64,000 bases of DNA from Psammoneis japonica (GCA_008632985.1 QPGO01000213.1:1-64000), one strand, 5' to 3'. Counted from the stretch's first letter, positions 15,865-62,759 are shown. Numbers and translations: made by a program. Notes: generated from the letters alone by a model not told the origin.

Positions 15865-15895
<31 letters not shown>

Positions 15896-34237: not shown

Positions 34238-36298
34238 ATGTCCATGTTGTCACTTTTGGAAGTGCTGCGACGACGGAAAATGACGACGACACCCGGCGCT
34301 GTGCCTCCTCAGATCCTATCTGCGTTGGAGGAGCTTCGTACACCCTCGAGCTGCTCAAATTCAGCAGAAGCGGCATGCGAGCTTTTCGAATTCTGCAATG
34401 AGCGGAAGGACAAAATTCCTCAGTCGCTCACCCAAGCCGGATTTCTTGAGACAATCATTGGTGCAATGGATCACGATGGGCAAAGCAAATCCTTTTACGT
34501 GTGTGTCATTCTTGTGATCCAAACTTTCATGAAGTCAAACGAAGACAACACAGAAGAATTCTTTGAAAAGGGCGGTCTCAAAAGAACAGTGTTTCTGATG
34601 GATGCATTTGTCACGGACGAAATCATTCAGACGGCGGGAGTTCAATGCCTCTGTTACCTTATGTTCAGAATCAGTGAGAAGTTCGCGGTTGAAATGGGGA
34701 CAAGAATCATGGAATGTGTTGTCAGAGCGATGGAAATTCACAAAGACTCAGCCTCGATCGCTGATTTTGGCATTGCAGGTCTAGTGAAGGCATCGGACTT
34801 GCTGCAACATGCGTTTCGTAATGATTTGATGCTTCGGTGCAAAACATGTCTCGAGCATTTGCTCCCAAACCATCTGCCTGATGTTGAGGGATGTGAGGAG
34901 AACTGTTCGCACTTGCTTGAGGAGTTTGACAAAATGCTCTTTCTCCGTCGTTAGCCAGAGAAACTGAGCAATTCATCTCTCAGTGCGTCGGAGGCCACGC
35001 AGCTCTTTCATGCTGTCGCATTGTTTGTTGCCAAGCCAGGCATGTCAGGAGCACTAGTCGGCGGCGGATTTTTCAAAATGGCCATTGCTTCATTGAATGA
35101 CGGTGGGCGGACCCGAGAGGTCTGTGAACAGCTTTGTGTGATGCTCACTGTGTTCATGGGCCTCGACGACAAAGGCAAGGGTTGCACGGAACAAATCCTT
35201 CGCATTGGCGGCCTCGAAAGCGCTCTTTGTATCGTCAACAGTTTCCCAAAAGATGAAAGGTGTCAGAGATCGGTGCTGGAGCTTTACCGCTTTTTCTGCG
35301 TGAATGGCACAGATGCAAAGAACGGGGCGGACATTGCGAACACGGTGCTCGAAAGCGCAATCAACATCATGAGCAACCATGAAGACTCGGCGCTTGTCTT
35401 CAGGCTATCTTGCCAGGCGGTTTTTGAGGCATTGCTTGTTCTTGACTTCTCTGTCAATGACGACGCGCTCTTTGACCAATGCATCAACTGCGTTTCCACT
35501 GGGGTTGCGAAGCATTGGAATGACAATGAATCTGTCGGAGTCGGTCGATGTGTGCTGGAAGGTTTGATTGGAGTGGACGCTTCAAACGAGGTGTTGGCAA
35601 AGCACTCTATGTCACATTTCACTTCCCAACTAGAGGAACTTCGTCATCCATCTCGCAATTCCGTGAAGGCGCTCGCGGCCGCACGGGAGCTTTGCTCCGC
35701 AATCGGCGCGGAAAAATTCCCCCTGTCCCTTGTCGATTCTGATTTTTTGGATGTAATCACCCATGCAATGAATCACCTCGGCCAGTCCAAAAGTTTCTAT
35801 TTTCCTTTGTTGATGATCCTTGTAAATCTCATTCATCTGGAAGACGCAACTGAGAAAATCGTTGAGATGGGAGGCGTCGCAAGATTGCTTGGTTTTATGA
35901 AATCCTTTGTGAACGAAGAGACATGGCAGTTGAATGCTCTTTACGTCATCCAACATTTTGCTTCTGAGAAGGGCGGTGCCTTTGCTGCTGCCATTGTCAA
36001 GAACGTCACAGAGGCAATGCGAGCCCACAAGGACTCGACAAAAATCTACTCCGCGGGTTGTAAGGCACTTGAGCAATCGTTGGAATCGATTGGATGGTGT
36101 GTTGAAGATGAAAAATTGCTCAAGAGAGTTGTGGACTGCGTTTGGTGTGGCATTGCAAATCATCCCTACGACGACGACTTGCAGTTGCGAGGTCGTAAGC
36201 TGCTGCACGTGTTGGTTGGAGATGAGGCTGCCAAAGAAATGATTTCATGTTCTGAGCATCGTCATTGTGCCGATGCTCACTGCAGTGCCGCTGCTTGA
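34238..36298 (+). pseudogene. Armadillo/HEAT-like helical repeat protein with three long repeats and one in-frame TAG
   Basis: Repeated LEELR.PS...GQSKSFY...GG units; ORFs 34199-34954 and 35021-36298 are in the same frame, separated only by TAG at 34952-34954. Confidence 0.65.
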
Positions 36299-37219
36299 GA
36301 GGTGCAGTTGTGAATTCTGAGAATTCTTTCGGATTTTGAAGTGGATTTGTAGTTTTTTGTCCTTGACCAAGACAAGTTACGGCGCCCAACTGTCCCTTCT
36401 TGATCTCTTGTCCATTGCCGGCACAGGAAAACAAGGATCAAGATGGTCGTGCATCCACAGCAGAGAAACGCGTAGAAATCATGCCAGAAAAAAATCCCAA
36501 CAATTTTCGTTTCTTTTCTCTTTGTTTGTCATGATCAAATGAGTGCATTTCTCATTGCAATTGACGGTGCACTTTGATGCAAAGTTCAGCATCCTGGTTT
36601 GAGGACTTCACAATTGGGAACACAAACAGGCACGGATGCGGAAAGCAGCAATTCGCTTGAGCATGCGAACTGCTGCAAGAAAGTTTTCTGTCTTGACAAG
36701 TCTTGAAGAGAGAATTCGAGGCCTGCAGTGCTGCTCTGGAGCAGCAGCAGCTCTCAAACAAAATGTGCACTGTGCAGTTATGATGGTCACATGCACCGTG
36801 TGGCAGCAACAACCTCATTTGTTGTTGCTGTTGTTCTGTTCGACTCCCGAGGGCTGATTGTGTGGTGCAACTCCGAGACACTCGGAGATCGAAAGGTTGA
36901 GGTGTCCACACTGCACGGCACTGCAAGATCTTGATTCTGCAGCCATTTTTTCAGGGGACGATGTGTCCTTTGCATCAACCTTTGGTCTTGGAGGCATGCA
37001 ATGCCCATTTGTGTGTGTGTGNAATGCCCATTTTTGTGTGTGGGGGGCGTGTGTGCCAACCTCCTTTGGGCACACATGAACACTGGGCAGCTGTGCCAAT
37101 GACAAAGATGTCAAGGTTTCAGAGAAGAGACTTCAAACCCGCTTGTCTAAATTGTGGCACACTTTGCCTTGAAGAGGCAGGTGGAAGGGTTTTCTGCTGC
37201 TGCCACCCACAAAAAACAT

Positions 37220-37620
37220 GTGTGTGCTGCACAGATTGCTGCTGCGAAGCACACCAGATGGGGTCATTTGTTGGCTGTTGACCAGCACACCCAGTGCCAC
37301 CACAGGGCTCACAAGGACATGCCAGAATGTTGGCCAAGCCAGTGGCTGAGAAAAAGAAGGTTTCTGAGCTTCTGAAAGGCATCTCTGAACCCAGATTGGA
37401 AACCAGGAAGAGTGTGGTGGATGGAAACCACACCAAGCTTGTGGGCTTTGAGGCTTGCAAGCAGCACGTCAAAGCTCTGGTCAAGAGTGCCAAGAGCCAG
37501 CACAGGAGGGCCAAAACTTGCACAACTGCCTGTGTTGGCCAACATGAGAGCAACTGACATAGAAAGCAAGGTGGCAAGAAAGGTGCAAAGAAGGAAACAC
37601 CTGGGATTGGGGCAGGCTGC
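37220..37620 (+). mobile_element. Ty1/copia (CoDi-type) gag remnant
   Basis: EKKKVSELLKGISEPRLETRKSVVDGNHTKLVGFEACKQHVKALV resembles the CoDi gag pattern KKV..FL.GI.D..L...K..V...KL..FE.CQQY (Tyr appears as His). Confidence 0.55.
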
Positions 37621-38549
37621 TGATGAGCAATGAGGCCGGCTCTGTCTGCTCTGCGGCTCCAGTGCATGCATGCGAGACCCCCTCATTTTTTTGGAATGCT
37701 CTGCATGGCAGAGTCTTGCACAAAACACACTTGCAGATCTAACAATGATCAATTGCACAGCATCAACAAAGAAGCCAGCACCTGCACCACCCAACAGATG
37801 TTGTCAAACTCATTGTAGAAGCATGCCAAGGTGCACTGGAATGGAGAGAATCGGCAATCAGTTCACTCCATTTCATCCAACGCTGAACCATCCCCAGTGC
37901 AAAATCATCACTTTTTTGGTTGGTGCTGACATGCTTCATTGATTGTCATCATGCACTTGGCTTTGTTGCACCTTGCAAGCCTTGGTGTGGAAATGTGTGT
38001 GTCTTGAGTGGTTGTCTTGTGGTTTTTGTCGTAAAATGGTTCTGTGATTTGTGAGAATTGACTTGCCAGACATGTGCTCACTTAGAGATGGGACTCTTTC
38101 TTGTCATGATGCAGGTTCTCAGCTCACACAATGCCAACAATGATGGTCAATGCTGCAGTGGATGCAGCAGAACCATCTTTGCTCTCACATTGCCTGCTTG
38201 TTTTCTCATGCTTGTGTGCTGCTTGATGACAGAGCCTTGACTGCCTCAAGAAGCCCCAAACCAAGCAAGATTGAATGTGGCAACAAATGCAAGGAGGAGC
38301 TGTCTGTGCAGACCTGGCCAATTTGTTCTTTCCAGGGGGGGGGGGAGGAGATTGTGCCAGTCCCGATGAGAATCACAACCAGCTCAGTGAAGTGGGGTCA
38401 TTCAAGCAGTTGTCAGATCAGAGCTCTTGTCTTCCCTCTGTCTAAAACACAGAGGTGAGAATCTTGTTGTTGTTTTGGTGCACAGGGTGCACCACATTTT
38501 CATTTTCCCTGTTGTGCTGACACAACACATTGTGTGTCTTCAAGGTCCA

Positions 38550-39250
38550 CTTTAAACTGTTGCAACCCGGAGAATCGCCCAAACTGGTGCCCTGCCAGTG
38601 GTGAATTTGATTGCTGCAAAGTTTCCTGCAACAAAAGCACTGTCTGAATTGAGCATTGATGATGGAATGGACGGGCACCGGTTCTTGCATGTCCTGTGGC
38701 AACAATGATCCACACTGCACCCAAACTGCAGGCTTGGTCCCAAATGTGGGAATTGCAGATTGGGCATGAGAAAGTTTGTGAAATGCAGCCATCATCGAGA
38801 AAAAGGCAAAACCTGGAGGCTCATTGCTGTCAATGGCACAAGAGAGGGTGAGCTCATTTGGGAGCACGGGTGAAGTCATTGACCAAGAAACAAGAAAGAA
38901 ATGCCTTGGAACATGGGCTGGATCATCCAAACAACCCCCATTGCTGCATGATGCATCTTGACACCAGACGGCACATTGATGCCATAAAATCCTGCAGGAA
39001 CATGGCTCCTGGCAAATTTCTGTGATGCAACCACCATTTTGATGCAAAGGATGTTTTCAATGTCAAGGCACCTTGTCGGGAAGAGAGTGGGAGGAAAACA
39101 GGAACAAGAAGTTGCAAGAGTGCACTTTGAGCATGACAAGAAATTTCTGTTGGACCTTGGCAAAGACAAAGCATGCAGACATTGGTGCATGTTTCCGATC
39201 TTGTGCCAGGCACTGCCAAAGACAAGACCATTGCGAGTGGACTGCAAGAT
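38550..39250 (-). mobile_element. Ty1/copia RT-RNase H remnant
   Basis: Fragmentary KIGNMH (DIGNAY-like), LLPQDMQEP (LPPNMPEP-like) and NSDSAFVAGN...FTTG (DSDFAG...STTG-like). Confidence 0.4.
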
Positions 39251-39499
39251 TGCAGTCAAGAGTTTGCAGTGAAAAGAAGGCTCTTCTTGTGGTGCATTGT
39301 CATTTTTGGGCTGACTTTGAGTGCCAATTAACAGCAAGAGCAGTGCCAAAGCACCTTGCTGTCTCTGCTTTGGCAAATTACAAAAACAGAAGAAGTGCAA
39401 GTGCTGCACATTTTCACTTTCCTGAATGTTGTGTGCTGCATTTCTCAAACACACGTTGTGTTTCCTGAATGTTGCACATTGCATTTCCTTTTCCCAAAG

Positions 39500-40200
39500 C
39501 ACATTGCGGTTGAGTGGAATCTTTTCAAAACAATGGCAAAGGGAGACTGGCTTTCCAGCATTGGGAGCCAGTCATGCCAATGGTGGGAGTCTCTGCAGCC
39601 ATCTTAATTTGAAGAAGCCTGCTGGCAACAGCGGCAGCAGAAAGAGAAAACAGAAGCAACATTGTGAGCACAATGAAAGGCAATGGACTGTGGCTGCTGG
39701 CACAACACTTGCATCTTTTCTGCAAGAGCCTCCATTTCCAGGAGCTCTGCATGCAATGCTTTGGAATCAAAGATGATCTTTTCCTGGGAAGCAATGGCAT
39801 CGCTGATGATTGCTGCCCTCTTCTTCTCCAACTCAGCTTTCATGACAAGGCACTTCCTTTTGACCTTTGATGCAGCAATCTTGGTGTCCCTGTCCATGTC
39901 ATTGGAGGCCAAAGCTGCCAGCATTTGGTGCTCCCAGCAGTGCTTCATGTTCACAAGCCAGTGCCACAAGACCTGCTGCTGGTCCGGCAGAAATTCATCC
40001 TGGAGCTCTGCTTGAGATTCCTCCAAGTCAACGATGGTCTTGCTGATGATGGCTGCCTTCTTCTCAAACAACTCTGACTTTTTGATGCATTGTGTCCTTT
40101 CAAACTTCAATGGGGCAATCTTCTTTTCAACTGTCAACAAGAAATTCTTGGCATCCATGTCATGGAAGGGGGCGAGGTTGCCGGACAAAGTGTGAACACT
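39500..40200 (-). pseudogene. Hypermutated partial paralog of the 53966-55097 gene family
   Basis: Intron, second exon and downstream flank align with 53745-54360 (gctggcaacag..gagaaaacagaa..ttgtgagcacaa..caatggactgtgg..gctggca); donor GTAAGT appears as GCAAGT. Confidence 0.7.
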
Positions 40201-40220
40201 CATGGTGCACAGCACCGTGT

Positions 40221-40427
40221 TGGGGAAAGTCTCCAGCCAGCTGCTGGCTGAAGAATCTTGTGTGGAATTTGTGCTGAAAGAGTCTGTCAATCTGCGTGTC
40301 AGGGGATTTTGGTGAATGCTGGACAGACTCGTCATCTTTTGTGCACACAACGATTCTGCTGGCAAAAGCCCCAAACGCACCAATGACCAGATTTTTTCAG
40401 CCAGCAGCTGGCTGGAGACTTCCCCCA
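40221..40427. mobile_element. MITE with about 32-bp TIRs, hypermutated copy
   Basis: tggggaaagtctccagccagctgctggctgaa pairs with ttcagccagcagctggctggagacttccccca; flanked by gtgt on both sides. Confidence 0.75.
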
Positions 40428-40451
40428 GTGTGACAACTCCTGCAGTGATTG

Positions 40452-41700
40452 CACCCCTGTGGCAGGGGAGAATGTGGTGATGTCACAATCATGTGGCAGT
40501 TTTGTGTCTCATTCATTGTGTTTTTACACAAATGATGTTCTCACATTCATTTGTGCATTTGTGCACAAATGCCAACAGCAACAGGAAACATCCTGAACCA
40601 CATTCTCCCCCAAAACTCTGACCACCAAAATCTGCAGGTGCTGTTGACACTGGTGTTGTCTTTTGCCAACAATGCCCACAATGAAGTGCCAACAACTCAC
40701 ACTTCTTTCTTTCTCACCCTGCTGCCTCCCAAAGATGCTGTCACAATGCAAACACTGCACCTGCATTTCAGTCCACTGGCATGCCCGATGCTGTTCCTTC
40801 TGCCCTTGCTGTCACAGGTGCTGTTGATGCTGTCATTGTTTTTCCTTTTTGGAAGGAGGACAATGGATGATGGTGGACCAGGAAACTGTCACCATGGCAT
40901 GCTGATGGACAAGTGTTGGTGTCATTGCCCTGCTGATGGACAAGTGTTGGTTTTGTTGCTGACATGCTTTCTGTGTTTGTTCATGGTTTTCCAGTTTTGG
41001 TTCAAGACATCTTCTGAAGAACTTGCATCCCGTTGGGCAAAGACACAGCAATCAACTTTTCAGGCATCAACACCTGTGTTGCACAAGTGTTCAGTGGGCT
41101 CTTTGCCTCCCTTTTGCTGGCCTGCAACATCAGTGGACATGAACAGCGCCTCTTTGTTGGCTCTTGAGTTTGGATTGATCTTTAGAATGTGTGCAGACTT
41201 GTGGTGCAGCTCTCTGTAAATTAGAAACCTGATGACATTCAGACAGCAGGCACTCTTTTGCAGTTTTTTAGTTGGAGAGGTCAGCAAATTGGCATTTGTT
41301 TGCAGGCAACTTGGCAAGGTTTCAAGTGGTGCATGTGACTTGGACACCGCACTCCATTTGCCAGGACTGAGTCATTGTCTGCAATTCCGTAAGATGCCAC
41401 TCTTGCTGTTTGAATTCTGCACACAACATGCAATGTGCTTTTTTGTAAGTTGCCAAAATGGAGGCAGGCTGCAATGTGCTTTTGGTGAATGCTCACTGTG
41501 TTTGTCACTGTTAGACCTTCTGAGCTGGAACCACATTGACAGCCATGCTGCCACTTTGCATGCACTGGCACCTTCTCCACCTGTGCTCCATTGGCCAGGG
41601 CCTCCTTCATGTTGATGCGGCTCATCTTGATGCCTGTTGTTGGCTCTGATTGGCTCCGCTGGGCTCTGGGTGAGTGTCAATCACCTCCAGACAGAGGTGC
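40452..41700 (+). repeat. Repeat-family copy starting cacccctgtggcaggggag; inverted copy of about 48200-49250
   Basis: The first about 180 bp match 47494-47670; 40630-41700 matches the reverse complement of 48200-49250. Confidence 0.75.
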
Positions 41701-43109
41701 AACAACATTTCAAAAATGAAAACGACTTGTCGTGCAAAAAGTTTGAAAATTTTCAGCTGTTGCCATTCATCTGGCCATCACATGTGCACTTTGACCTTGC
41801 AGCCTCTCACTCTCTCGTCCTCTTGTCCTCTTCCTTTTCTTCACAAACTTGGAGAGCCACCTGTGTGACCAGACATGTGAAAAAAATGAGGCAGGGCGTG
41901 CCGGAGAGGATGATGGATGAAGAAAGTCAAAGATGTGCCTCCGGTGGGCAGGAATTCAGAATTTCCAAGGTGCTGGAAATTTGAAAAGGTGCTGATTTTC
42001 TTTTCAAGTGCTGATTTTGAAAGGCACAAGTGCAGACAATCATTTGACGGCATGGCATCTGGCATCTGGCATCATGACAGATTTTCCTGATGCGAACACT
42101 CTCGCCATGACCTGCAAACATCACCAACCACTGGAGAGGACCCACCACCCATTGGCTGCAGCAGTCACCTGGTTCCTGCTGTCTTGCTCTGTTGGCATTT
42201 CAACCAGACACCTGACAAGCAAACAAATGCCATTCATTGCACTGATTGACCAAGCAACCACTGTCCACAAAATGGCGGCCCACAGAGCACCTTGCTCTTG
42301 CAGCTCTAGAACCTGTTGATTGCCGCATCAACCAGCGGGTGCGGCTCACAGTCTAGAACCCGTTGATTGCCACAACAACCAGTGACCCACAGAGCATGAC
42401 CTGACTGTCACTGCTCCAGAGAATGTTTTGATTGCCACACGAACCTTTCCACCACTTGTTGCTCCCAGCAATTCTCAGCTGTCATTGTTCTTGCAGTGGC
42501 ACTTGGTCACTTTGTCAGAGCTTTTGAGCTGCAACCCTTGACTTCTTCCTGGAGAGGGGCAGCATCACTCACAGGTGGCACAACAGCACGACTGCAGTTC
42601 ATTGATTTTTGTGATGAGCACCATGTTTGCCCCCCATGGTGGATGCTCATGCAATTGCTGGTGGGTTCACAGTGCACTCACACACCACACATGTTTCTGC
42701 ATTTTGGCACATGTGATTGGCGGCAGATTGCGACACATCCATGCACTGCAGCTCTGCTTGAAATGGACATTTTGCATTCATGGTGCAGCAATTTTCAGGA
42801 TGATCTTTGCGCATGCAATGCAAAGGGCGGACAGAGCAATTGATGGTTGTTTTCATGGCTCTCTGCTCCAGAGCTGGAGAGCCTGCTCTCTCTCTGCCGC
42901 AGAGCTGCCACTCTCTGCCAGAAGACACTGTGATTGCATGCAAAACATGCCAGGACAGATGTTGCAATTTGTCACATGCATCCAGACACATGGCGCATTT
43001 TGACAATGGCACATTGATGTCGCATGTTGATGCATTTTGACAAGAGCTGTTCTTTTGCCAACCGAACTCATTTCAATTGCCAACCCTGCTCATTTTGATT
43101 GCCAAAAAT

Positions 43110-43625
43110 TGGCAATTGAAATGAGCAGCATTTGAGCTTGTTTGAGCACATTTGAGCATGTGTGAGCAATTTGAGCACATTTGAGCAAGGACATTTCAGC
43201 GCACAATCCAAATGGTGATGAACTGTGAAACCTTCCGTGTCCCACTGTTGGAAAGATCGTGCACACCAGCAGTTGCATGTCCTCCTGTGAAAGTCCTGCC
43301 AGAAATTGAAAACCTTGCACAACAGCCAATGGATGGTTGCCCATGCAATGTCTGCCCCTGCAGCTCTTTGCGTGCTGCGCTCCAGGGCGATCAACAAGAT
43401 GCGCTTGGCCTCAGCACTGTGCGTGCCCATTTCTCTTCTTCTTCATTTGGCGCTGTTGTGTCTGTTGGTCAAGGAGAATTCAAATGAGCAGCATCTGAGA
43501 ACAATGATTCAAATGAGAAGCATTTGAGCACAATGACTCAAATGAGCAGCATTTGAGCAAATGAGCAGCATTTGAGCCTTTTTGAGCACATTTGAGCACA
43601 AATGGCAATGATTTGAGCACAACTG
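43110..43625. repeat. Two clusters of 10-12-bp TTTGAGCACA/AAATGAGCAGCA repeats (possible transposon subterminal repeats)
   Basis: Visible at about 43115-43200 and 43480-43620, upstream of the pogo-like transposase. Confidence 0.65.
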
Positions 43626-44039
43626 GTGATGACATCAGCAAATTGGTGATGAGAAATAAATGCAAATTTTTGCATTTGAACAAATGTTCATGCTGCAGAA
43701 TCCAACGCAATTTGACGCAGAGCCAAGAAATCCAGACCTGTGAAACTTCAAATGCTCCATTTTGACACCCTTTTGACACTCGCAAATGAAAGATCTGATT
43801 GCGCTGGCCAGGAAAAAAATTTGCCCGACTCCAAAATTCCATGTCGTTGTCATTTATGCACCTCAAAAAATGTTTCCTTGTGACTGTTGATGGGATTGAT
43901 GTTGCACATTGAGGCAATTTTTTGTCACACGCAGAAACAATGCTGACACATGCGCAGGACACCACCAAGATTTGGCACCTCATTTCTTTTTCTAAGATCA
44001 ACCATGGCACCACCTTTGAAGCCTCCAAAAATGCAAAAA

Positions 44040-45560
44040 GATGCAAAGAAGGCCAAGCTTTCTTTTGCAACTGACTTCTTCTAAAAAAACATCGTGGTCA
44101 TCCAAAGAAGAAAAAAGTGGCACTCGCAAAGGATGCTGCAAGCAGCACTGCCAGAATCAACAAGGCACTTTCTGTGCCCAAGACAACAAAGAACTGGGCT
44201 GCCAAGAATGCTGCAGCAGCTGAGAACAATGAAGACAAGAAGCGCAAGGCATCAACAGATGGCAGCAAGAGTGATGGGTTCATTGCAGCAAAGAAACCAA
44301 GGATGAGTTGGTCCAAGGAGCCTCATCTGTCAATCATGATGGGCATGGCTTGGCAAGAAGGACCCAGCTTTGTGACAGCAATGGAGAATCTCATTCAACA
44401 GAAGCATTTGCCAGTGTCATTGGAGTGCCAATCATCACCTTCAGAAAGTGCATCAATGGCGACCCTGCAAAATGACATCAGATTGGCAACAGCCTTGGAA
44501 GAAAGCCAATTGTCAATGTGACATCCCAAGAGGTGATTGCGCAATCAATTGCCAAGCTTGAAAGAGCCAATTGTGGACTTTCAAAAACAGAATTTGTTGA
44601 TCTGGTTGAGCAAGTGTGCCCAGATTTAAAAAGCCACAACAGTGCAGCCAACCACTTCTGAAGGACGGTGCAGCCAAATCATGCAGAAACCATCAAGAAG
44701 AAAGAGCAAAAGGCTCAGGCAACAACAACCAAATGAAGTGCAGCCACAATGGATGGTCGATGTTGGTGGTTTGTGGAGGTTGAGAATGCTTCAAACTTTC
44801 TCAGGAGCAGGAACGTTGGTCGCTGTGGGGTGACAGGCAAGCTTTTTGGCAAGGTTGTTCAGCATTTTGTTCAGGTGGGTTACGAGTCTTGCTGCATTGT
44901 GTCAGATGGCACCGTCTGTGTTGTCTGTTCTCTTGGTAAAAAGAAACATGAGAAAATCTTGCACAACTCTTGTGTGTCAATGTTGGTTTGTCACACGGGT
45001 TCTGCCCCTGGATGCCAGGCCCCCCCTGTTTTTCTTCTTGCTGGTTTGAGGAGGCATGCAGGGTCATGCACCGATGTGCATCTTAGAAAGCTGGGTGCTG
45101 CCAAAGGTTCCACAATCATCATGACCCTGGCTGCTTTCATGACAGAAGAAGCACGGGCAAAACAACTCCCACTGCAGCGTTGGGTTGCAGAAATGCTCAT
45201 CCAAGGAAAGCAGCAGCCAACAACCTGCAGTGGCAGACACTGGAGACACTTGATGGGTTTGGTCCGCACTTCTCTTCATTGGAAGCCATGGAATGCCATT
45301 GGAACAACAATGTCATGTTGTTGAAAGAAGAAGGTGATGCATCGCATCATGCCAATCAATCACATGATCAACTGGAGGCAGCCAGTGACAAAGATCTCAA
45401 GCGTGACAGGCTTGGGTCATGTCAAAGCACTTGGATGATGAGTCTGTTGCAGCACTGGCATGACAGAAGACAAATGTCACATCCATCAGGCCATGGCTGT
45501 GATGACAGCTGCAGCAACAACAAAGACAAAAGTTTGCAAGCCCAAGGCTCCTGCAGCATG
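44040..45560 (+). mobile_element. pogo/Tigger-type (DDE_1) transposase pseudogene, hypermutated
   Basis: KKKHEK, PVFLLAG, GSTIIMT..AFMTEEA, LDGFGPH, LLKEEGDASHHANQSHD (Tyr appears as His in the NQxYD-type motif). Confidence 0.7.
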
Positions 45561-45926
45561 TGACTGTTGCACACATGTTTGCAATCATGTGTTGTTTGTG
45601 TGTCAATCGTGCCACAGTCGTGGATGCATGCAAAGGACAGAATGATCACACAGAGTTGATCGGATGTCGAAAATTGCAAACACAATCAATTGACGATGTT
45701 GACATCTTGCGTGTCAACAGCAATTGCACCCGGACAATCTGTTGTCATGAACATTTTCTCCGAAAGGCCTTTTGTCTGCAGAAGCAGTGCAGAAGCTTCA
45801 GGCCATTGAGAACTCGTTCGGAGAAACCAAAAATCACAGAGCAAAATTTAATCTTGCAATTTTCACTTTTCACACTTGATTCTGCTTTCATTTGCACTTG
45901 TTCTTCGAGCACAGTGCACTCCCAAG

Positions 45927-46810
45927 ATGGGGGGAGTTTTCTCTGTCGGTGCTTCTGAAATGGTGGCTTCAACTGGCGGGAAACCCAAGGCTGACTGGTC
46001 CGGGCTGGACCCGTCTGCTGCCCCCAATCTGACGTCTCTGAATCAGTGTTGCTCTCACCATGTCTCTTCTGCTCAGAAGAGGTTTGCAAAGAAGGGAGAT
46101 CTCGCAACTTTTGAGAAAAATGTCTTGAAACATCTCAAGGACTGTGGATTGGACACAGCGACTTGCCTGCGGGACCCCAAGGACTCAACTGCAATGATGT
46201 CCTTCATTGAAGGACATCCTCGTTGCTCCAAATTGAGTGTCACTTGCCTTGTTGCACCTCAACTTGCCAAGCATGATTCCTGCAACACCTCCAATTGCAG
46301 GGGCACTGCTGAGTTTCTCAAGAACTTCATGTTGGAGACTGGTCCTGCAGACCCTCCAGTTGGATCTGGAGACAGAAGAAATGGATTGCTTCCTGAAGGT
46401 TTGGGTCACTCTCATTTTGATTCTACAGAGCACATCTGTCAAATGCTTCAAGCAGGTCAAGAAGCAGCAGGAGAATCTCAAGCCCTCTCAGTTTGCCCTT
46501 CCTTTCTGAGCTCTGCTGTCTAAGTTCAAGACTGCCACTCAAGAGTTGGATGTTGTGGGTCAGCATGACAACAAGTTGACACTTGCCTTGGTCAACTCAT
46601 GCTTGGGGGCTGCCTGTGTCATGGAGAGAACAAACAGCAGTTCAAGCACACTCTTCAAGCAATGAAGGAGGACTTCATTAAGGCACTGGTTGAGACAGCT
46701 CACAAGAAGTCCAAGACAGATGCAAAGCAACACCTTGCATCCAAGAACCTTGCCTGCTCCCAATGCGCTTTGGATTTTGAAGCAGATTTGCAGCTTTTCA
46801 TCCTTGAGTG
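45927..46810 (+). mobile_element. Ty1/copia CoDi-type gag remnant, hypermutated
   Basis: TGGKPKADWSGL, HLKDCGLDTATCLRDP, GQHDNKLTL; positions expected to be Tyr read as Cys or His. Confidence 0.7.
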
Positions 46811-47493
46811 AGACAAATTGCAGCTCCCAACTGTCCCTTCTTGATGTCTCCTTCTCCATTCTAGGATGACAAGGATTGAGATGGCTCTGCATCCATCCAA
46901 GGAGATGCATGTTGTGCTGTGCCAGCTTGCAGCCAAACAATGAGTCTTGGTGGCCCCGCGTCAGTGCCCACAAAATTGCCCCTTTGTGGGGATGGCCACG
47001 CACCAATCTCCATTGGGTGCACACAAACATTGGGCAGCTGAGCCAATGACAAACATGCCAAGGATTCAGAGGGGGATTCAAATCCACTTGCATCTCCTTT
47101 CTAGATTGCAGCACATTTTCTGTGCAAAACTCCACTTGGTTTTGACTCCTTTGGCTTTGGCTTTCTGAGCACAAATTTTGAGTGCAGCTGTGTGCATCCA
47201 GAAGGATTTTGCAGACAGCTGAAGGTTGTGTTTTGTTGCTCTGTGCTTTTCACCCTCTTTCTCATTCCAGGTTTTCTTGCAACAGCAGCAGTGGGAACAG
47301 AAAACAGAGGCAAGGTTTTGTGAGCAGCAATGAAGACTGTGGCTGCTGGTGGCACAACACTCACACCGTCTTTGCATGCTGAGAGTTGCTTTCATGCTGG
47401 GCCTGCGCCATTTGGCGCATGTAGAATCTCGTGTAGAAATCACGTGCGCCACTGTGGCGCAAAATTTGTCACGCCCTGAACTCCTGCCTGTTC

Positions 47494-49616
47494 CACCCCT
47501 GTGGCAGGGGAGAATGTGGTGATGTCATTGTTGCGTGGCAGTTTGTGTCTTGTTCATTGTGTTTTCACACAAATGTGCTTGCATTCATTTGTGTGTTTTC
47601 ACACAAATGCTGACAGCAGCAGGAAAAATCCTGAACCACATTCTCCCCTAAAACTCTAACCACCAAAAACCAAGGGCACGGAAGCGCACTTTTTGAAGAC
47701 AGCGCACACACCAAAACATCACGCGTTTCGACAACTTGACCATGACGACCTCCCGTTCTTCATCCCCCACACCACCTGATGCACACCCACCTGCCGTTCC
47801 TGACACGGCAGTCTCTCCTGCATTGGCTGGTGCCGTCAAACCCGCTGTTGTAACCCAAACACAGCACATTTGCGATCCTGAAGTTTGGGCCCATTTTCAT
47901 TGGATCCAAAATTGACCGTGGCTGCCATTGCCGCCATTTGTCATTGAGTGCTGCAATCAAGCACAATGCAACAACAAGGCGAAACAACCCCACTCGTGCT
48001 GCGACTGCCATGGATGCAAGCAGGCCTGGTGGTGGCAGAGCAAGGCAATTTTGCCAGGATCAACAAAGGCATGGGATCAACAAGCACCAATGCACTGGTC
48101 GATGCTCCTTGTGTGGGCGTGGGCATGGCAGAGGACCATCTATGATGGGAGGCATGGTGACAACTTTTCTCAGGATGATTGTTCCCAAGCAGAACCTCCT
48201 CCATCTGGAGGTGATTGAGACTCACCCAGAGCCCAGTGGAACCAATTGGAGCCAACAACAGGTGTCAAGATGAACCGCAGCAACATGCAAAGGAGGACGC
48301 AGCTGATGGAACACGGGCAGAGAAGGTGCCAGCATGCAAAGTGGCAGCACAGCTGTCGACATGGCACTGGTTTTGAAGGTCTGACAGTGACAAACACAGT
48401 GAGCATTTGCCAAAAGCACGTTGCTGCCTGCCTCCATTTTAGCTGCTTACAAAAAAGCATGTTGTGCATCACATGTAGAATTCAAATGGCGAGAGTGGCC
48501 TCTCATGGAATTGCACACAATGACCCAGTCCTGGAAAGCAGAGCAGTGTCCAAGTCACATGCACCACTTGAAACCTTGCCAAGTCACCTGCAAACAAATG
48601 CCAATTCGCCAACCTCTCCAACTTGAAACTAAAAAACTGTGAAAGCATGCCTGCCATCTGGTTGTCATCAGGTTTCTAACACACAGAGAGCCACACAATG
48701 TGTCTGTACATTCTAAAGATTAGACTGCACTCGAGAGCCAACCAAGAGGCACTGTTCATGTCCATTGATGTGTTGTCCATCAGCAGGCCGTGGTTGTGTG
48801 GGTTTCCTGGTCCGCCGTCATCCATTGTGCTCCTTCCAAAGCAAAAACAATGACAGCATCAACAGCACCTGCGGCAGCAAGGGTGCGATTGACAGTGTCG
48901 GGCATGCCGGGGGCCAAAACGCAGGTGCGGCATTGGGATTCGTGACAGTGTCTGTGGGAGGCAGTGGGGCGAGAATGAAAGAAGTGTGAGTTGCAAGCAC
49001 TTCATTGTGGATGTTGTTGGCAAAAGACAATGACAGTGTCAACAGCACCTGTGGCAGCAAGGGCAGGAGCAACAGTGTTGGGCATGCCAGGGGGCCAAAA
49101 CGCAGGTGCGGTGTTTAAATTCGTGACAGTGTCTGTGGAGGTGGTGGGGCGAGAATGAAAGAAGTGTGAGTTGTTGGCATTTCATTGTGGACGTTGTTGG
49201 CAAAAGACAATGACAGCATCAACAGTGCCTGCGGCAGCAAGGGCAGGAATGACAGTGCTGGGCATGCCAGGGGCCCGAAACGCAGGCATGGCTTTGGAAT
49301 TCGTGACATTGTCTGTGGGAGGCGGTGGAGTGTGCAAACAACAGTGTGAGTTTGTGGCATCTCATTTTGCATGTGTCACACCCACGAGAACCGGAACAAT
49401 GACATCACCTGTTGTGTCAGTGTTGTTGGCAATGGCATCAGCAGGATCGGTGTCCTGGGAAGGCGATGGGGAAGAACCACGAGGCATCATCATGGTCAAG
49501 TCATCAAAATGCGTGTTTTTTGTGCGGAGAAAAGAGCTGCCAGAAGTGCGCTTCCGTACCCTCGGTTTTTGGTGGCGTGGTTTGAACACACACACAGCTC
49601 CCCTGCCACAGGGGTG
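47494..49616. mobile_element. Segment bounded by inverted cacccctgtggcaggggag termini (long-TIR element, or two copies facing each other)
   Basis: 47494-47512 matches the reverse complement of 49598-49616; extended inverted homology between 47660-47760 and 49470-49575. Confidence 0.65.
48842..49370 (+). repeat. About 180-bp tandem repeat, roughly 3 units
   Basis: caaaa(g)acaatgacag..caacag..cctg.ggcagcaaggg starts at 48842, 49021 and 49201. Confidence 0.9.
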
Positions 49617-49839
49617 CTCCCACTTGACTTCCGTGTCAAGCAATGTTGGTTGCTTGGCTGGATCCTGCAACAAGAACTCCGAGACACCCTTTTCCTTGGC
49701 GATTCGTCGAGGAAACATGAGAGTCATCTTTGCCTTTGTCAACACCATCAGCAAAATTTGCCATTCTGTCATCATGCCGGACTGGGGCAGTGGCTGCTTC
49801 AAATGTCTTGAAACAAAGGAATTGGTTGACAACTTTTGA

Positions 49840-52669
49840 GTGGGAAACCGACCAACACGAGAGCTCAGGCAACTGGTCATCAAATGTGGAGGTGCCACTT
49901 CCTGTGAAAGAAAACGCATGCTTTCTGCCCTTGCGATTCTTGGTGCAAGGTTTGAGGCAAACGATCATGTCGGCAAGGTCATTGATGCATGGGCACAGCC
50001 CATTCATTTGGAGAAACAGGCTGAGATGAAGCTTTGGCAGGAGGAACCAAAATTTGTGGCAAAATGTCTGAGCCTTGAATCGATGCAGAGTCAGTTTAAA
50101 GGGGTCTTTTCTCCTTGGTGGGATGCGACGCTATCTTCGTTTGACATCAAACAATGCTTGTCAGAGAGGTCAAATCATGAAAGTTGTGTTTTTGTTGAAT
50201 TGCTTGACATGGCCGTCGGCTCAGGATGCTTTGATGCTGCCATGTGGCTTCTGATGCATTGGAAGGCTCCGTCATCAAAGTCACCTGACATGTGGTGTCA
50301 CTGTAAAATCATGGAAACCGCACTGACCGGTTGGATCCACGATGACATGTTTGCCGTCGATGAGGAGACTCCTCCTCTCTACATGCATGGGGCAAAAGAC
50401 GTCATTGAAGAAACCATGGGGTCCGACTGTAATCCAGCCCACGAAAGGTCGAGAATCAACGAATTTTTTTGGGGTGTGGACTTGGGCGAAGGCGATCGAT
50501 TCGACCTTCACTCGGTTTGGAGAGAAATTCACAAGAAGGCCCCTGCGCATGAGGCCAATGAAGACAGCGAAATTTGGTTCGGTGTTCCACCCAAGATCTT
50601 CACCGCAATCAAAATGGCGTGTACATTGCCGCCGAGTGATTTCGAAGAATCCGGGCAAGCGAAGCTTTTGGACTGTTTTCTGGAAACTGTTTACGACGAA
50701 GACTCCAAATTCCTCTCGGCAGACCTCCCGAGCTTGGCAAAGTTCGTTGTGCTGGACCATCTCCACTTCTTTCAATTCCTCACAAAGCAAAGAAGTAGCA
50801 CAGATGAGACCGTCACTCAAAGCTCATTTCTTGACCTTGACATGCCACTTCTTTGCCCAGTCACCCATGTTTGTGGTTCGGATGAAGCTGACGACGCGGC
50901 CATGACGGACGATGAGGATGTCGAAAATCCATGCTCGATTTGTTTGGAAGCCATGGCCAACCCATTCAAGCTCAGATGCGGGCATTGTTTTCATCACAGA
51001 TGTTTTTTTTGCCATGCTTTCCCTGAGCTGCGAGACGGAGCTGCTGCATCAAGCTCGACAGATGGTGCAAATGAAGTGACCCACGAAGTCCTCTCGACAT
51101 TGCCGAATCTCTCATTTACCCTCGCTAAAGCGAACTGTCCTCATTGTCGCCAATCTGTCAAACCAAGCCTTCAAGAGGCATTTGCACTGAATTTGGCCGA
51201 TGGACTAATGAGGACAGACATGGAACGAAGAGAGCGCCCTTGTTCGCCTCACCTCGATCTTGCAAAGTTTCGAACTGGAATCACAGTTGGCGAATCGCTC
51301 TTAGCCTTCGCGGCATGCAGCGGTGCCATCAGCATCTTTCAGTGGCTCGTTTTGGATTCCGGAGTGAAACCTAATGACGTCTACGCTGGCGATGTCAATG
51401 TCATGCATTTCGCCGTAGCTCACAAGCAGGTCCTTATCCCCACTCCCAGCGCGAACCATGCAGTGGTTCGCCGCGCGAACTCACGAATGCGCGCGATTCC
51501 TGCCCCGAACCATCAAGTGGTTCGCGGCAAGCCAAAAACGAACCGATAGACGATGGGTAAAAGTGTAAAAGATAATGAGATATCTACAATAACATTACAT
51601 CAGTCGATACAGCAACGTCTGTTTGACAATAAGTATGCTTTATTTTAGTGGTTTACTATGTTCTTAAACTTCTCCGTACTGCTACCGTCTTGTTCATCGT
51701 GAGCCTCATTTTTCTGGTTCAATTTTGCATTCGACCCTCTGGTACAAATTACCACGTATATTTCTACGCTCGTCCTCCCGAACCACCTCATGGTTCACCA
51801 ATTCTACGGGGCTCCCGGTACTTATCTACGCAGCGAACCGCCCAATGGTTCGATATTTTTTTCTGGTACTGCCCTACGGTTGTTTCTACGGGGTGAGAAA
51901 ATCACCGCCAACGACCATGACGGTGATTTGACGGCGACCGAGCTCCACACACGAGTGGCGGCTGACAACATAATGCATTGATAACAATGGCTTTTTGCCT
52001 CTGTTAAAAGGTTGTATCTGTGTAGGTACTACTTTATTGTGTCAGTTGCGAGTTTTACGCTACGCAAGTTGCGAACCACTGAGTGGTTCCATTTTTTGCC
52101 CGAGTGGGGTTATCATACGTTGGCTGTGCCTTAACGGCTATTCATCCATGCTTTATGGTAGATTGCAAAGGAGTGCGTTCGATACTTTTGAGCCTTCCTT
52201 GAACTCTGGCACTTCGATGCATGATATTGATCTCAACCTTGATGACAAAAATGTCGCCAAGCGACTGCTATTTTGGAAACGAAAGTTTGGGCTCGCTTCA
52301 CTTCGAAGTGATAACGAAAGTTATGAGTACCGGTACGAAGAGCACGAGCTGGAGCTTCTCCACGAGTTGCCAAGTGACGAAGAAACTCATATTCTGGGTC
52401 TTCAGCGAGTGTCTGAGGACCAGAGTCCGATGCATTATCTACTGATGAATTCCTTGACACACTTTGAAGGACCTATGAGTGATTTACTTTTCAAGCTTTT
52501 ATGGTCTCTTGGTGTATCTGCCATGCCAGCCAACTGGTACCAGCTTGTACTTTCTTTGAGCGTGGACCCAACCATTCGTTCGAATGCCAAGGCGTTCTTG
52601 TCAAAAAGAAGTATTGACCCCTCCTCTGTGTATAACCTATGGGCAACTTCCCAATATTCTGCAAGATGA
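49840..52669 (+). pseudogene. RING-finger plus ankyrin-like protein interrupted by a piggyBac-like insert; 5' part hypermutated
   Basis: CSICLEAM...LRCGHCFHHRC...CPHCR. Removing 51438-52109 plus one TTAT restores HFAVAHKQVL-IIRWLCLNGY in frame. The start codon is uncertain. Confidence 0.75.
51438..52109. mobile_element. Non-autonomous piggyBac-like element (672 bp) with a TTAT target duplication
   Basis: TTAT|CCCCACTC...GAGTGGGG|TTAT; five internal GAACC-N7-GGTTC palindromes. Confidence 0.85.
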
Positions 52670-62669: not shown

Positions 62670-62759
62670 TGTGCAAACAAACAATGCCTTCACACAGTAA
62701 CACGCAGGCTGATGACTGTTTGCTCTACGAGTTCGTACGTAATGAGTTTCTGCGTTTGC

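What the first reader, a model, noticed from the sequence alone, without database searches (positions are those of the whole stretch)
36400..51437. Repeat-associated TpA->TpG/CpA hypermutation: a candidate RIP-like A:T->G:C genome-defence system
Seen: four domains covering about 26 kb have lost most TA dinucleotides (4 in 1-1020), while host genes between them have normal TA. Recognisable content of the two large domains is copia, pogo and MITE remnants and disrupted genes. Known: fungal RIP and 5mC decay are C->T and enrich TpA or TpG; neither removes TpA. Inference: a regional mutator acts on the A of TpA (adenine deamination to hypoxanthine, as TadA/ADAT-family enzymes do on U-A in tRNA), or equivalently on the T of the other strand, in repetitive or heterochromatic DNA. 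I know of no described eukaryotic system like this, but I cannot confirm novelty without a literature search.
Basis: partly seen in the sequence, partly recalled or inferred. Interest (0 to 1): 0.95.

Follow-up and report, generated by a model that had tools for sequence, protein, structure and literature searches.

The report
TpA-erasing hypermutation domains in an alga
Four sharply bounded blocks of this eukaryotic chromosome piece have had almost every TA step rewritten to TG or CA, the footprint of a DNA mutator so far reported only once, in another alga.

Summary
Four blocks (1-1000, 21000-30000, 34200-51300, 62800-64000) have TpA o/e 0.03-0.11 against 0.62-0.69 in the genes between them. 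Borders are 200 bp wide or less and GC is unchanged. The flagged interval holds 70 TA where 668 are expected.

Polarity and context could be tested inside the window. Repeat copies lying in TA-normal DNA keep TA and CG where the TA-poor copies have TG/CA, and never the reverse. TA-poor copies differ from each other by TG-versus-CA double changes (50 of 340, against 0 of 160 in controls). So the changes arose in place, after the copies split.

Two processes overlap. TpA->TpG/CpA covers the whole of each block. CpG->TpG/CpA affects only the cores.

The same TpA signature was seen live in mutation-accumulation lines of Bigelowiella natans (bioRxiv 10.64898/2026.01.13.699255). It is therefore not undescribed.

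This window is probably not B. natans: no self-hit was found in the protein collection, the genes are intron-poor, and the best named relatives are diatoms. It is best read as a second, saturated instance.

The enzyme is untested; an adenine deaminase is the leading guess. The copia and pogo content could not be confirmed. One MITE-like insert is present and is unmutated.

The parts
1..1000 (.). TA-poor, CpG-poor block D1. It runs off the window start and has a sharp right border near 1000.
   Evidence: 4 TA, o/e 0.06; CpG o/e 0.34; TG 1.77, CA 1.83. TA per 200 bp steps from 1 to 9 at position 1000.
21000..25000 (.). Core of block D2: TA-poor and CpG-poor. No protein domain recognised.
   Evidence: 1-kb windows have TA o/e 0.01-0.06 and CpG o/e 0.15-0.60. 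Left border lies at 20800-21000. No Pfam family at E<=0.1 other than chance-level hits.
25000..30000 (.). Periphery of block D2: TA-poor with near-normal CpG. It holds an ankyrin-repeat ORF (25151-26764, +) and other open frames.
   Evidence: TA o/e 0.08-0.38 and CpG o/e 0.54-0.95. Ank_2 hit at E 2.7e-9. Tyr is 0.2% of 538 aa, against 1.7-4.2% in control ORFs.
26939..27328 (.). MITE-like insert with 25-nt terminal inverted repeats. It is a TA-normal, CpG-rich island inside block D2, so it is unmutated and presumably young.
   Evidence: Inverted arms 26939-26963 and 27304-27328 are 88% complementary. There are 15 TA in 27000-27249, against 0-4 in the neighbouring 250-bp bins. Sequence read.
34200..36400 (+). 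Left periphery of block D3: TA-poor with normal CpG. It holds two tandem paralogous ARM-like ORFs (34178-34951 and 34955-36295).
   Evidence: TA per 200 bp drops from 25 to 2 at 34200 while CpG stays at 7-18. The two ORFs are 31% identical. 51 relatives at E<=1e-3 in the 1.84-billion library; the conserved C-terminus aligns. Tyr 0.8-1.1%.
36400..50300 (.). Core of block D3: TA-poor and CpG-poor. It is a mosaic of degenerate dispersed, inverted and tandem repeats without a recognisable protein domain.
   Evidence: 56 TA (o/e 0.06), CpG o/e 0.28, TG 1.78, CA 1.79, GC 0.483. Internal paralogues found. K-mer depth in run X1 is 2000-24000 in bins 40003-40669, 45339-46005 and 47340-50007, and 303 in 40670-41336, against about 60-90 elsewhere. 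No TE domain.
40435..41697 (.). Repeat arm. Its partner is 47479-49369: partly direct (40435-40630 ~ 47479-47668) and mostly inverted (40634-41697 ~ 49232-48198).
   Evidence: 81-84% nucleotide identity. These pairs supply most of the TG-versus-CA double mismatches.
48841..49328 (.). 180-nt tandem repeat (2.7 copies) inside the core. It is also present in inverted orientation at 40634-40912.
50300..51350 (+). Right periphery of block D3: TA-poor with normal CpG. It overlaps the conserved C-terminal half of a RING-finger gene (ORF 49840-51546).
   Evidence: TA is 0-4 per 200 bp up to 51399 and 10-15 from 51400 on; CpG is 8-15. One relative, P0121, is 50% identical over query residues 246-533 and carries RING Pfam domains.
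62800..64000 (.). TA-poor, CpG-poor block D4. It runs off the window end.
   Evidence: 2 TA (o/e 0.03), CpG o/e 0.21. Border lies at 62600-62800.
53638..54391 (.). TA-normal fragment of the same repeat families as 39355-39716, 41471-41561 and 48334-48425. It serves as the unmutated comparator.
   Evidence: 74-83% identity. Its TA and CG align with TG/CA in the TA-poor copies.
9816..9914 (.). TA-normal fragment homologous to 40234-40330. A second unmutated comparator.
   Evidence: 84% identity.

Best explanation
The four blocks are chromatin-scale domains in which nuclear DNA has been rewritten in place by a context-specific mutator. The mutator turns the T:A pairs of 5'-TpA-3' steps into C:G (TpA->TpG on one strand, TpA->CpA on the other). 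A second, ordinary process, CpG->TpG/CpA decay of the kind caused by 5-methylcytosine deamination, has acted only in the repeat-rich cores. The two opposite transitions cancel, so GC content is unchanged. This is the long-term footprint of the TpA hypermutation seen live in Bigelowiella natans, here in what is probably a different, diatom-like organism.

Shown here: direction of change, TpA and CpG specificity, sharp domain borders, independent mutation of copies after they split, equal use of both strands, spread over flanking gene-like ORFs without CpG loss, and support from read-derived contigs.

Inferred: the domains are silenced or heterochromatic DNA marked for defence (about 0.6). The chemistry is deamination of adenine to hypoxanthine, read as G, by a TadA/ADAT2-like deaminase that prefers a 5' T (about 0.4-0.45). 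The CpG loss is due to methylation (about 0.8).
For: Depletion and mass balance: in 27,354 bp of TA-poor DNA against 33,903 bp of normal DNA, TA falls from 44.9 to 5.1 per kb and CG from 55.5 to 26.1. TG+CA rises from 143.5 to 207.6 per kb (loss 69.2, gain 64.1), with base composition unchanged.

Polarity: in 6 alignments (about 635 nt) of a TA-poor copy with a TA-normal copy, TA of the normal copy faces TG 11 times, CA 5 times and TA once. CG faces TG 13 times, CA 4 times and CG 4 times. The reverse (TA or CG in the poor copy facing TG/CA) occurs 0 times.

Context: A->G per A is 16/48 after T, against 7/99, 7/91 and 4/70 after A, C and G. C->T per C is 17/57 before G, against 7/91, 3/46 and 3/74.

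In-place timing: in 8 non-overlapping pairs of TA-poor copies (1816 columns), TG faces CA 50 times against 290 same-type matches. In 5 pairs of TA-normal copies (1758 columns) the counts are 0 against 160 (Fisher P 2e-9). If about 31% of TG/CA are derived, as the composition suggests, about 105 of the 340 aligned sites should be derived (my arithmetic). Fifty mismatches imply about 100 independent conversions, so nearly all of them postdate the split.

Borders are 200 bp wide or less.

Both strands: TG:CA is 1578:1518 in the core. There is no run structure: lag-1 autocorrelation 0.001 (permutation SD 0.018), chi2/df 1.15 over 47 bins.

Decoupling: the peripheral parts keep CpG at about 0.9 of normal while TA is about 0.2 of normal.

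Coding effect: Tyr is 0-1.1% and Cys/His are raised in the ORFs of the blocks, against Tyr 1.7-4.2% in 7 control ORFs.

Reads: contigs built by Logan from run X1 (word depth about 47-67) match TA-poor stretches of 580-1868 nt with 0-1 differences. Among the 40 alternative letters listed (251 more not shown), those inside the TA-poor block mostly show CG or TA where the window has TG or CA.

Precedent: in B. natans, 230 of 231 de novo mutations in two viral regions were A->G or T->C, all at TpA. [quoted passage not shown] Their cluster criterion is met by 14 consecutive 1-kb windows at 36001-50000 and by 5 at 21001-26000.
Against: No mutation was observed happening; this is a footprint only. 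The polarised sample is small (about 635 nt, 24 TA), and the comparator copies are not true ancestors.

Run X1 may be the data the assembly was made from, its platform is not on record, and all three runs are one sample. An independent platform was therefore not tested.

Nothing in the window identifies an enzyme. TpA is palindromic, so A-directed and T-directed chemistry give the same footprint.

It also rests on the assumption that the blocks once had the tetranucleotide make-up of the flanks.

A foreign or repeat origin of the targets is only partly shown: no viral or transposon domain was found. Repeat fragments and a 4- to 14-fold repeated stretch (51342-52675) outside the blocks are unmutated. 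An unmutated MITE-like insert sits inside block D2, so the activity is old, episodic or size-dependent.

That the organism differs from B. natans is inferred, not proven.
Confidence: 0.75

Rival explanations
1. The same regional TpA->CpA/TpG process, but the attacked base is thymine. A TET/JBP-type dioxygenase oxidises T at TpA to 5-hydroxymethyl- or 5-formyluracil, which mispairs with G and fixes T->C.
For: TpA is its own complement, so every result here fits an attack on T as well as on A. The flank preference can equally be read as purine-T-A. From recall, not from a call: 5-formyluracil induces A:T->G:C transitions, and dinoflagellate 5-hydroxymethyluracil is enriched at TpA.
Against: There is no direct evidence for the modification or the enzyme in this organism. 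The only published discussion of the signature favours adenine deamination, also without proof.
Confidence: 0.15
2. RNA-level A-to-I hyperediting (ADAR/ADAT type, 5'-U preference) of retrotransposon transcripts, fixed in DNA by reverse transcription and reinsertion.
For: It gives A->G after U. ADAR-type enzymes favour a U upstream of the edited A, as quoted in the preprint's Discussion.
Against: It predicts a one-strand bias per element and restriction to retroelements. Observed TG:CA is 1578:1518 with no local strand runs. The blocks have sharp common borders that enclose tandem and inverted repeats and adjacent gene-like ORFs. Copies differ by independent TG-versus-CA choices at the same site. 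No reverse transcriptase domain was found.
Confidence: 0.03
3. The blocks are foreign or ancient DNA that was TA-poor from the start (a compositional island, for example a virus or a horizontally acquired segment), not DNA mutated in place.
For: The blocks are sharply bounded and most of their frames have no homologues. In B. natans the targeted regions are of viral origin.
Against: Members of the same repeat families outside the blocks keep TA and CG at the aligned sites. TA-poor copies carry different products (TG against CA) at the same site 50 times of 340, against 0 of 160 in controls. The loss of TA plus CG equals the gain of TG plus CA. No relative was found in the viral contig collection for 3 ORFs, though that method finds close relatives only.
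Confidence: 0.03
4. Sequencing, base-calling or polishing artefact: modified bases in heterochromatin are misread systematically.
For: Only one sample and one study hold the sequence, the platform is not on record, and the best holder may be the assembly's own data. A single N lies in the block at 37022.
Against: Independently built k-mer contigs at word depth about 47-67 reproduce TA-poor stretches of 580-1868 nt with 0-1 differences. An artefact would not create TG in one repeat copy and CA in another at the same site while sparing a MITE-like insert in the middle of a block. The borders coincide with ORF ends.
Confidence: 0.03
5. Cytosine methylation decay alone (CpG->TpG/CpA) explains the TG/CA excess, and TA is low for unrelated reasons.
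For: CpG o/e is 0.28 in the core, with a TG/CA excess.
Against: C->T cannot remove TpA. TA is lost where CpG is kept (periphery: CpG about 0.9 of normal, TA about 0.2). CpG loss (29.4 per kb) accounts for under half of the TG+CA gain (64.1 per kb).
Confidence: 0.01

Closest known systems
TpA hypermutation of integrated viral DNA in Bigelowiella natans (Mettrop et al., bioRxiv 10.64898/2026.01.13.699255; abstract, Results, Discussion and the dinucleotide Methods read; supplements closed)
   Same: TpA->TpG/CpA only, on both strands. It is confined to bounded regions of the nuclear genome. [quoted passage not shown] TpA-depleted CDS there are enriched for reverse transcriptase and DDE domains. 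The enzyme is unknown, with an ADAT2-like candidate proposed.
   Different: Here there is only a footprint, with no measured rate. Depletion is near saturation (o/e 0.06, against Rho 0.45 for their NCLDV region). CpG decay is superimposed in the cores; the preprint's main text does not mention CpG (0 occurrences). No viral or transposon protein is recognisable. The blocks extend over flanking gene-like ORFs. The organism is probably different: no self-hit in the protein collection, the best named MCM4 relatives are diatoms at 61-65%, and the ORFs are long and intron-poor. From recall, B. natans genes are intron-rich. A flank preference (TAT, TAC lost before TAG, TAA) is reported here; I saw none in the preprint's text.
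Repeat-induced point mutation (RIP) of Neurospora and other ascomycetes
   Same: Context-dependent transitions concentrated in repeat-rich, silenced DNA. Both strands are affected, coding capacity is destroyed, and flanking unique sequence is also hit.
   Different: The direction is opposite. RIP is C->T at CpA and creates TpA and AT-rich DNA. Here A:T->G:C at TpA destroys TpA and GC does not change. The RIP indices come out inverted: TpA/ApT is 0.09 and (CpA+TpG)/(ApC+GpT) is 1.90 from the counts (the usual RIP thresholds are recalled). Repeat fragments outside the blocks are spared, so homology-driven targeting is not evident.
5-methylcytosine deamination decay of CpG in methylated transposons
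   Same: It explains the CpG->TpG/CpA half of the pattern in the cores (CpG o/e 0.28, polarised).
   Different: It cannot remove TpA. TpA loss extends beyond the CpG-poor cores.
A-to-I deaminases of the TadA/ADAT2-3 and ADAR families
   Same: A->G outcome, with a U or T preferred 5' of the edited A (as quoted in the preprint).
   Different: Their natural substrates are RNA. Action on chromosomal DNA is claimed only for amphioxus ADAT2 (as cited in the preprint) and for engineered TadA (recalled). No such gene lies in this window.
APOBEC3-type hypermutation of retroelements
   Same: Deaminase-driven, context-dependent hypermutation used as defence.
   Different: That is C->U on minus-strand cDNA, giving strand-biased G->A. 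Here the change is A:T->G:C, strand-symmetric and regional.

Membership tests
TpA hypermutation as described in B. natans | [quoted passage not shown] | tested here: met
   The criterion was read. In one search the windows 36001-50000 (14 in a row) have TA o/e 0.01-0.16 and mean TG/CA o/e 1.57-1.98. Windows 21001-26000 (5 in a row) have 0.01-0.08 and 1.53-1.80. My TG/CA figure is the mean of the two o/e values, a close stand-in for their Rho.
TpA hypermutation as described in B. natans | Substitutions are A->G/T->C and fall on TpA | tested here: met
   Polarised paralogue comparison: 16 of 17 aligned TA became TG or CA, with 0 reverse cases. A->G is 16/48 after T against 0.06-0.08 in other contexts. 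The sample is small. A separate CpG->TpG/CpA component is also present, which the preprint's text does not report.
TpA hypermutation as described in B. natans | De novo mutation rate raised about 1000-fold in the region | not testable with these tools
   This needs mutation-accumulation lines or pedigrees. Only contigs of one sample were available.
TpA hypermutation as described in B. natans | Targets are of foreign origin (NCLDV, virophage, transposon) | tested here: inconclusive
   The cores hold repeats with tens to hundreds of copies by k-mer depth. No viral or transposon domain was found, and 3 ORFs have no relative in viral contigs. Heavy mutation may have erased the signal.
Fungal RIP | C->T at CpA, giving high TpA/ApT, low (CpA+TpG)/(ApC+GpT) and AT-rich DNA | tested here: not met
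   From the counts: TpA/ApT = 139/1546 = 0.09 and (CpA+TpG)/(ApC+GpT) = 5679/2992 = 1.90. GC is 0.48 inside and outside the blocks. This is the opposite of RIP.
5mC-driven CpG decay | CpG depletion with matching TpG/CpA gain in silenced repeats | tested here: met
   Core CpG o/e is 0.28. CG of the normal copies faces TG 13 times and CA 4 times. Methylation itself was not measured. This accounts for only part of the pattern.
ADAR-type RNA hyperediting fixed by retrotransposition | A->G bias on the sense strand of each retroelement | tested here: not met
   TG:CA is 1578:1518. Lag-1 autocorrelation is 0.001 and chi2/df is 1.15.

The most novel reading that the evidence does not exclude
A heterochromatin-directed DNA mutator that erases TpA, an A:T->G:C mirror image of fungal RIP, is not a curiosity of one chlorarachniophyte. 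It would be a genome-defence system shared across distant algal lineages (here a diatom-like organism). It would work side by side with cytosine methylation so that the two opposite transition biases leave GC content untouched. It would be carried out by a DNA-acting adenine deaminase, or a thymine-modifying enzyme, with a T-A-pyrimidine preference, recruited to chromatin domains rather than by repeat homology.
Probability: 0.35. Interest if true: 0.9.

Novelty: new member of a known kind. Interest (0 to 1): 0.72.

Why it matters
A natural system that makes A:T->G:C changes in chromosomal DNA at a defined dinucleotide has so far been reported once, in a 2026 preprint on one alga, and without an enzyme.

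A second case in a probably unrelated lineage would turn an oddity into a class of genome defence. This case is saturated, sharply bounded and has internal controls. It shows that the process acts in place on whole domains, independently of CpG decay, and spills onto neighbouring genes.

It also gives concrete handles for finding the enzyme: domain borders, a flank preference and an unmutated young insert as a clock.

A natural DNA adenine-editing or thymine-editing activity would interest work on mutation-rate evolution, on silencing of transposons and endogenous viruses in protists, and on base editing. It also matters for annotation, because such blocks lose TAA and TAG stops and Tyr codons and so produce long spurious ORFs.

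Tried and rejected
- Whole genome of the window: not held, so no genome-wide TpA scan, no family consensus and no search for deaminase genes.
- Cluster-member look-up to name the best MCM4 relatives: switched off. The lineage therefore rests on the names only.
- Earlier findings of this scan: none for this genome or for eukaryotic TpA loss. The phage cases listed there are a different matter.
- Pfam on ORFs of the TA-poor blocks (123 ORFs at E<=0.01; 107 of 215 at E<=0.5; 81 of 135 at E<=0.1; sets overlap): no transposon or viral domain, only chance-level hits.
- Relatives of three block ORFs in the viral contig collection: none. The method finds close relatives only.
- Relatives of the repeat ORF 48219-48623: none, near lengths only.
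- Tyr->Cys/His polarisation against outside homologues of the RING and ARM-like ORFs: too few conserved Tyr columns to count. One Tyr-to-His and several kept Tyr were seen by eye.
- Strand-coordinated clusters of TG or CA, as a processive single-strand deaminase acting in one event would leave: none. This rejects a single-burst model, not a deaminase.
- RNA evidence: no RNA holder listed. Run X2 covers only small parts and X3 covers nothing; no conclusion is drawn.
- tRNA genes and Rfam families: none in the window.
- Literature: 4 searches returned results and a fifth was rejected for syntax. They found the B. natans preprint and no other report of TpA-specific A:T->G:C hypermutation of genomic DNA. 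The one diatom paper that mentions hypermutation is unrelated.
- Biased gene conversion: considered and rejected, because GC is unchanged and the change is TpA-specific.

Full report
**1. Observation**

A 1-kb scan shows four blocks in which TpA is almost absent. These are 1-1000 (4 TA), about 21000-30000, about 34200-51300 and 62800-64000.

- In the blocks, TA o/e is 0.03-0.11. In the DNA between them it is 0.62-0.69.
- GC is the same inside and outside (0.48-0.52 against 0.47-0.48).
- The flagged interval 36400-51437 has 70 TA where 668 are expected at the flank rate (Poisson P 4e-193). Its CpG o/e is 0.34 and its TG and CA o/e are 1.74 and 1.75.
- The longest TA-free run is 1302 bp. In normal DNA the longest is 426 bp, inside a GC-rich tandem repeat, and the next is 199 bp.
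- Borders are abrupt. TA per 200 bp goes from 25 to 2 at 34200 and from 4 to 10-15 at about 51400, with similar steps at 1000, 21000 and 62800.
- The third block therefore begins about 2.2 kb left of the flagged start.

**2. Two superimposed signatures**

- In the cores (1-1000, 21000-25000, 36400-50300, 62800-64000) both TpA and CpG are depleted; CpG o/e is 0.28 in the largest core.
- In the peripheral parts (25000-26900, 27750-29900, 34200-36400, 50300-51300) TA is about 0.2 of normal but CpG is about 0.9 of normal.
- No clear CpG-poor, TA-normal block was seen, apart from about 400 bp at 20600-21000.
- Mass balance fits two conversions into the same products. Per kb, TA falls by 39.8, CG falls by 29.4, and TG+CA rises by 64.1, with base frequencies unchanged.

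**3. Polarity, context and timing**

The window contains its own controls. Fragments of the same repeat families lie both in TA-poor and in TA-normal DNA.

- *Polarity.* In 6 poor-versus-normal alignments (about 635 nt), TA of the normal copy faces TG 11 times, CA 5 times and TA once. CG faces TG 13 times, CA 4 times and CG 4 times. TA or CG in the poor copy never faces TG or CA.
- *Context.* Counting both strands, A->G is 16/48 after T, against 7/99, 7/91 and 4/70 after A, C and G. C->T is 17/57 before G, against 7/91, 3/46 and 3/74.
- *Timing.* In 8 non-overlapping alignments between two TA-poor copies (1816 columns), TG is aligned with CA 50 times against 290 same-type matches. This double change is expected only if each copy converted an ancestral TA or CG independently. 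In 5 alignments of TA-normal paralogues of similar divergence (1758 columns) it occurs 0 times against 160 (Fisher P 2e-9).
- Fifty mismatches imply about 100 independently converted sites. That is close to the roughly 105 derived sites expected (my arithmetic) if about 31% of TG/CA are derived, as one search suggests. So essentially all conversions postdate the split of the copies.
- The TA-poor state is therefore not ancestral.

**4. Strand use and flanks**

- TG:CA is 1578:1518 in the core.
- The order of TG and CA along the DNA is random: lag-1 autocorrelation 0.001 (permutation SD 0.018), and chi2/df 1.15 over 47 bins of 300 bp.
- This points to many small events on either strand, not one strand-coordinated burst.
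- Surviving TA are not a random sample. Relative to normal DNA, TAT is at 0.016, TAC at 0.05, TAG at 0.117 and TAA at 0.179 in the cores. The same order holds in the periphery: 0.083, 0.179, 0.302 and 0.278.
- ATAT is 0 of 101 expected-scale counts and ATAC is 2 against 241, while CTAA stays at 0.41.
- This suggests faster loss when TA is followed by a pyrimidine (equivalently, preceded by a purine). The inference assumes that the blocks once resembled the flanks.

**5. Content of the blocks**

- The cores are a mosaic of degenerate repeats. There is an inverted pair at 40634-41697 / 48198-49232 (81%), direct pairs linking 36328-40630 with 46769-47668, and a 180-nt tandem array at 48841-49328.
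- K-mer depth in run X1 shows parts with tens to hundreds of copies: 40003-40669, 45339-46005 and 47340-50007. Most of the block is at single-copy depth of about 60-90, at 90% likeness or more.
- No transposon or viral Pfam domain was found in any scan. A repeat ORF has no relatives.
- The periphery carries gene-like ORFs:
  - an ankyrin-repeat ORF;
  - two tandem ARM-like ORFs with 51 relatives in the 1.84-billion library and a well-aligned C-terminus;
  - a RING-finger gene whose C-terminal half is 50% identical to one outside protein.
- Their Tyr content is 0.2-1.1%, against 1.7-4.2% in 7 control ORFs, with Cys and His raised. That is what TAY->TGY/CAY predicts. So the mutator also reaches coding DNA next to, or enclosed in, the domains.
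- A 390-bp MITE-like insert with 25-nt inverted ends (26939-27328) is TA-normal and CpG-rich in the middle of block D2. It is either very young, or the activity is old, episodic or blind to short inserts.
- Repeat fragments at 53638-54391 and 9816-9914, and a 4- to 14-fold repeated stretch at 51342-52675, lie outside the blocks and are unmutated. Targeting is regional rather than by homology alone.

**6. Artefact check**

- One search found three runs of one sample and one study.
- Logan's contigs of X1 (word depth about 47-67) match TA-poor stretches exactly or nearly so:

| Length (nt) | Position | Differences |
|---|---|---|
| 1868 | 41617-43484 | 1 |
| 1663 | 45860-47522 | 0 |
| 984 | 44313-45296 | 0 |
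| 682 (664 nt laid) | 37042-37705 | 1 |
| 580 | 37977-38556 | 0 |
| 673 | 49588-50260 | 0 |
| 621 | 50242-50862 | 0 |

  (all)
- This excludes an assembler or polishing artefact. It does not exclude a platform effect, because the run may be the assembly's own data and its library is not on record.
- Among the 40 listed alternative letters (251 more not shown), those within 34000-50300 are mostly CG or TA in other copies or alleles where the window has TG or CA. Two are adjacent double changes, TG against CA.

**7. What is known**

Four literature searches returned results. They found one report of this signature: Mettrop et al., bioRxiv 2026. I read the abstract, Results, Discussion and the dinucleotide Methods; the supplements are closed.

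- In B. natans mutation-accumulation lines, 231 of 302 nuclear mutations fell in an integrated NCLDV region and a virophage region.
- 230 of those 231 were A->G or T->C, all at TpA, at about 6e-7 per site per generation. They appeared only in some lines.
- The authors also found 124 clusters of TpA-depleted, CpA+TpG-enriched 1-kb windows, and enrichment of reverse-transcriptase and DDE domains among TpA-depleted CDS.
- They proposed an ADAT2-like adenine deaminase, without proof.
- Their cluster criterion is met here by 14 and by 5 consecutive windows.
- Their main text does not mention CpG.

**8. Which organism**

- The MCM4 fragment (15645-16613) has no near-identical hit among proteins of 565-2000 aa. 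The best is 68%, and every named hit at 60% identity or more is a diatom (61-65%).
- The RING ORF has a single relative at 50% and no self-hit.
- The annotated B. natans proteome should have given identical hits. That it is in the collection is my assumption.
- The window also has several uninterrupted ORFs of 450-820 aa. From recall, that fits intron-poor diatom-like genomes and not intron-rich B. natans.
- I put about 0.85-0.9 on 'not B. natans'.

**9. Mechanism**

- *Shown:* an in-place, domain-restricted, strand-symmetric TpA->TpG/CpA process, plus CpG->TpG/CpA in the cores.
- *Inferred:* the domains are silenced chromatin. The CpG part is 5mC deamination. The TpA part is enzymatic: most likely deamination of adenine to hypoxanthine, which is read as G, by a deaminase with a 5'-T preference. 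Alternatively it is oxidation of thymine to a G-mispairing base.
- Sequence cannot separate the last two, because TpA is palindromic.
- RNA editing followed by retrotransposition, ancestral composition, artefact and methylation alone are each contradicted by specific results (see the rival explanations).

**10. Verdict**

The enzyme is untested. The novelty claim is overtaken by one 2026 preprint.
- The window most likely documents the same kind of system in a second lineage, at saturation, with features not described there: coupling to CpG decay in the cores only, spread over neighbouring genes, a flank preference, and an unmutated young insert.
- Interest 0.72. Novelty: new member of a known, very recently described kind.

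Noticed in passing
window 26939-27328: MITE-like element with 25-nt terminal inverted repeats (88% complementary) and an internal 18-19-nt inverted or direct motif. It is TA-normal and CpG-rich although it sits inside a TA-poor block, so it could date the last activity of the mutator.
   Followed up: partly
window 55479-57377 (+), especially 55800-57400: An LRR-type ORF of 632 aa has intermediate TA (3-6 per 200 bp; o/e 0.30 at 56001-57000) with normal CpG, in otherwise TA-normal DNA. This may be a weak or early exposure to the same process, or just codon usage.
   Followed up: no
window 34178-36295 (+): Two tandem paralogues (31% identical) of a family of small ARM-like proteins, about 250 aa long, whose relatives mostly end in a Cys-containing C-terminal motif of the C-S-C-A-A kind. 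51 relatives at E<=1e-3 in the 1.84-billion library. Function unknown.
   Followed up: partly
window 33065-34156 and 54479-55556: A pair of TA-normal paralogous segments (about 73% nucleotide, 48-66% protein identity), with an internal 190-nt duplication at 33293-33655. No Pfam family reaches its cut-off.
   Followed up: no
window 19812-20265: A 129-nt tandem repeat (3.3 copies, 94-97% alike) in GC-rich, TA-free but CpG-normal DNA. Open frames run on both strands. It is unrelated to the TA-poor blocks.
   Followed up: no
window 37022: A single N in the assembly, inside the TA-poor core.
   Followed up: no
window 15156-16613 (+): MCM4-like replication helicase gene (end of the OB domain, P-loop and lid). 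The N-terminal part was not located. The best named relatives are diatoms at 61-65% identity.
   Followed up: partly
window 61221-62885 (-): ArsP_1-type permease fragments in two adjoining frames, and a short calreticulin-like match, abut the left border of block D4.
   Followed up: no
window 51342-52675: A stretch at 4- to 14-fold k-mer depth in run X1 lies just outside block D3 and is TA- and CpG-normal. It is also the part best covered by the small run X2, whose library type is unknown.
   Followed up: no
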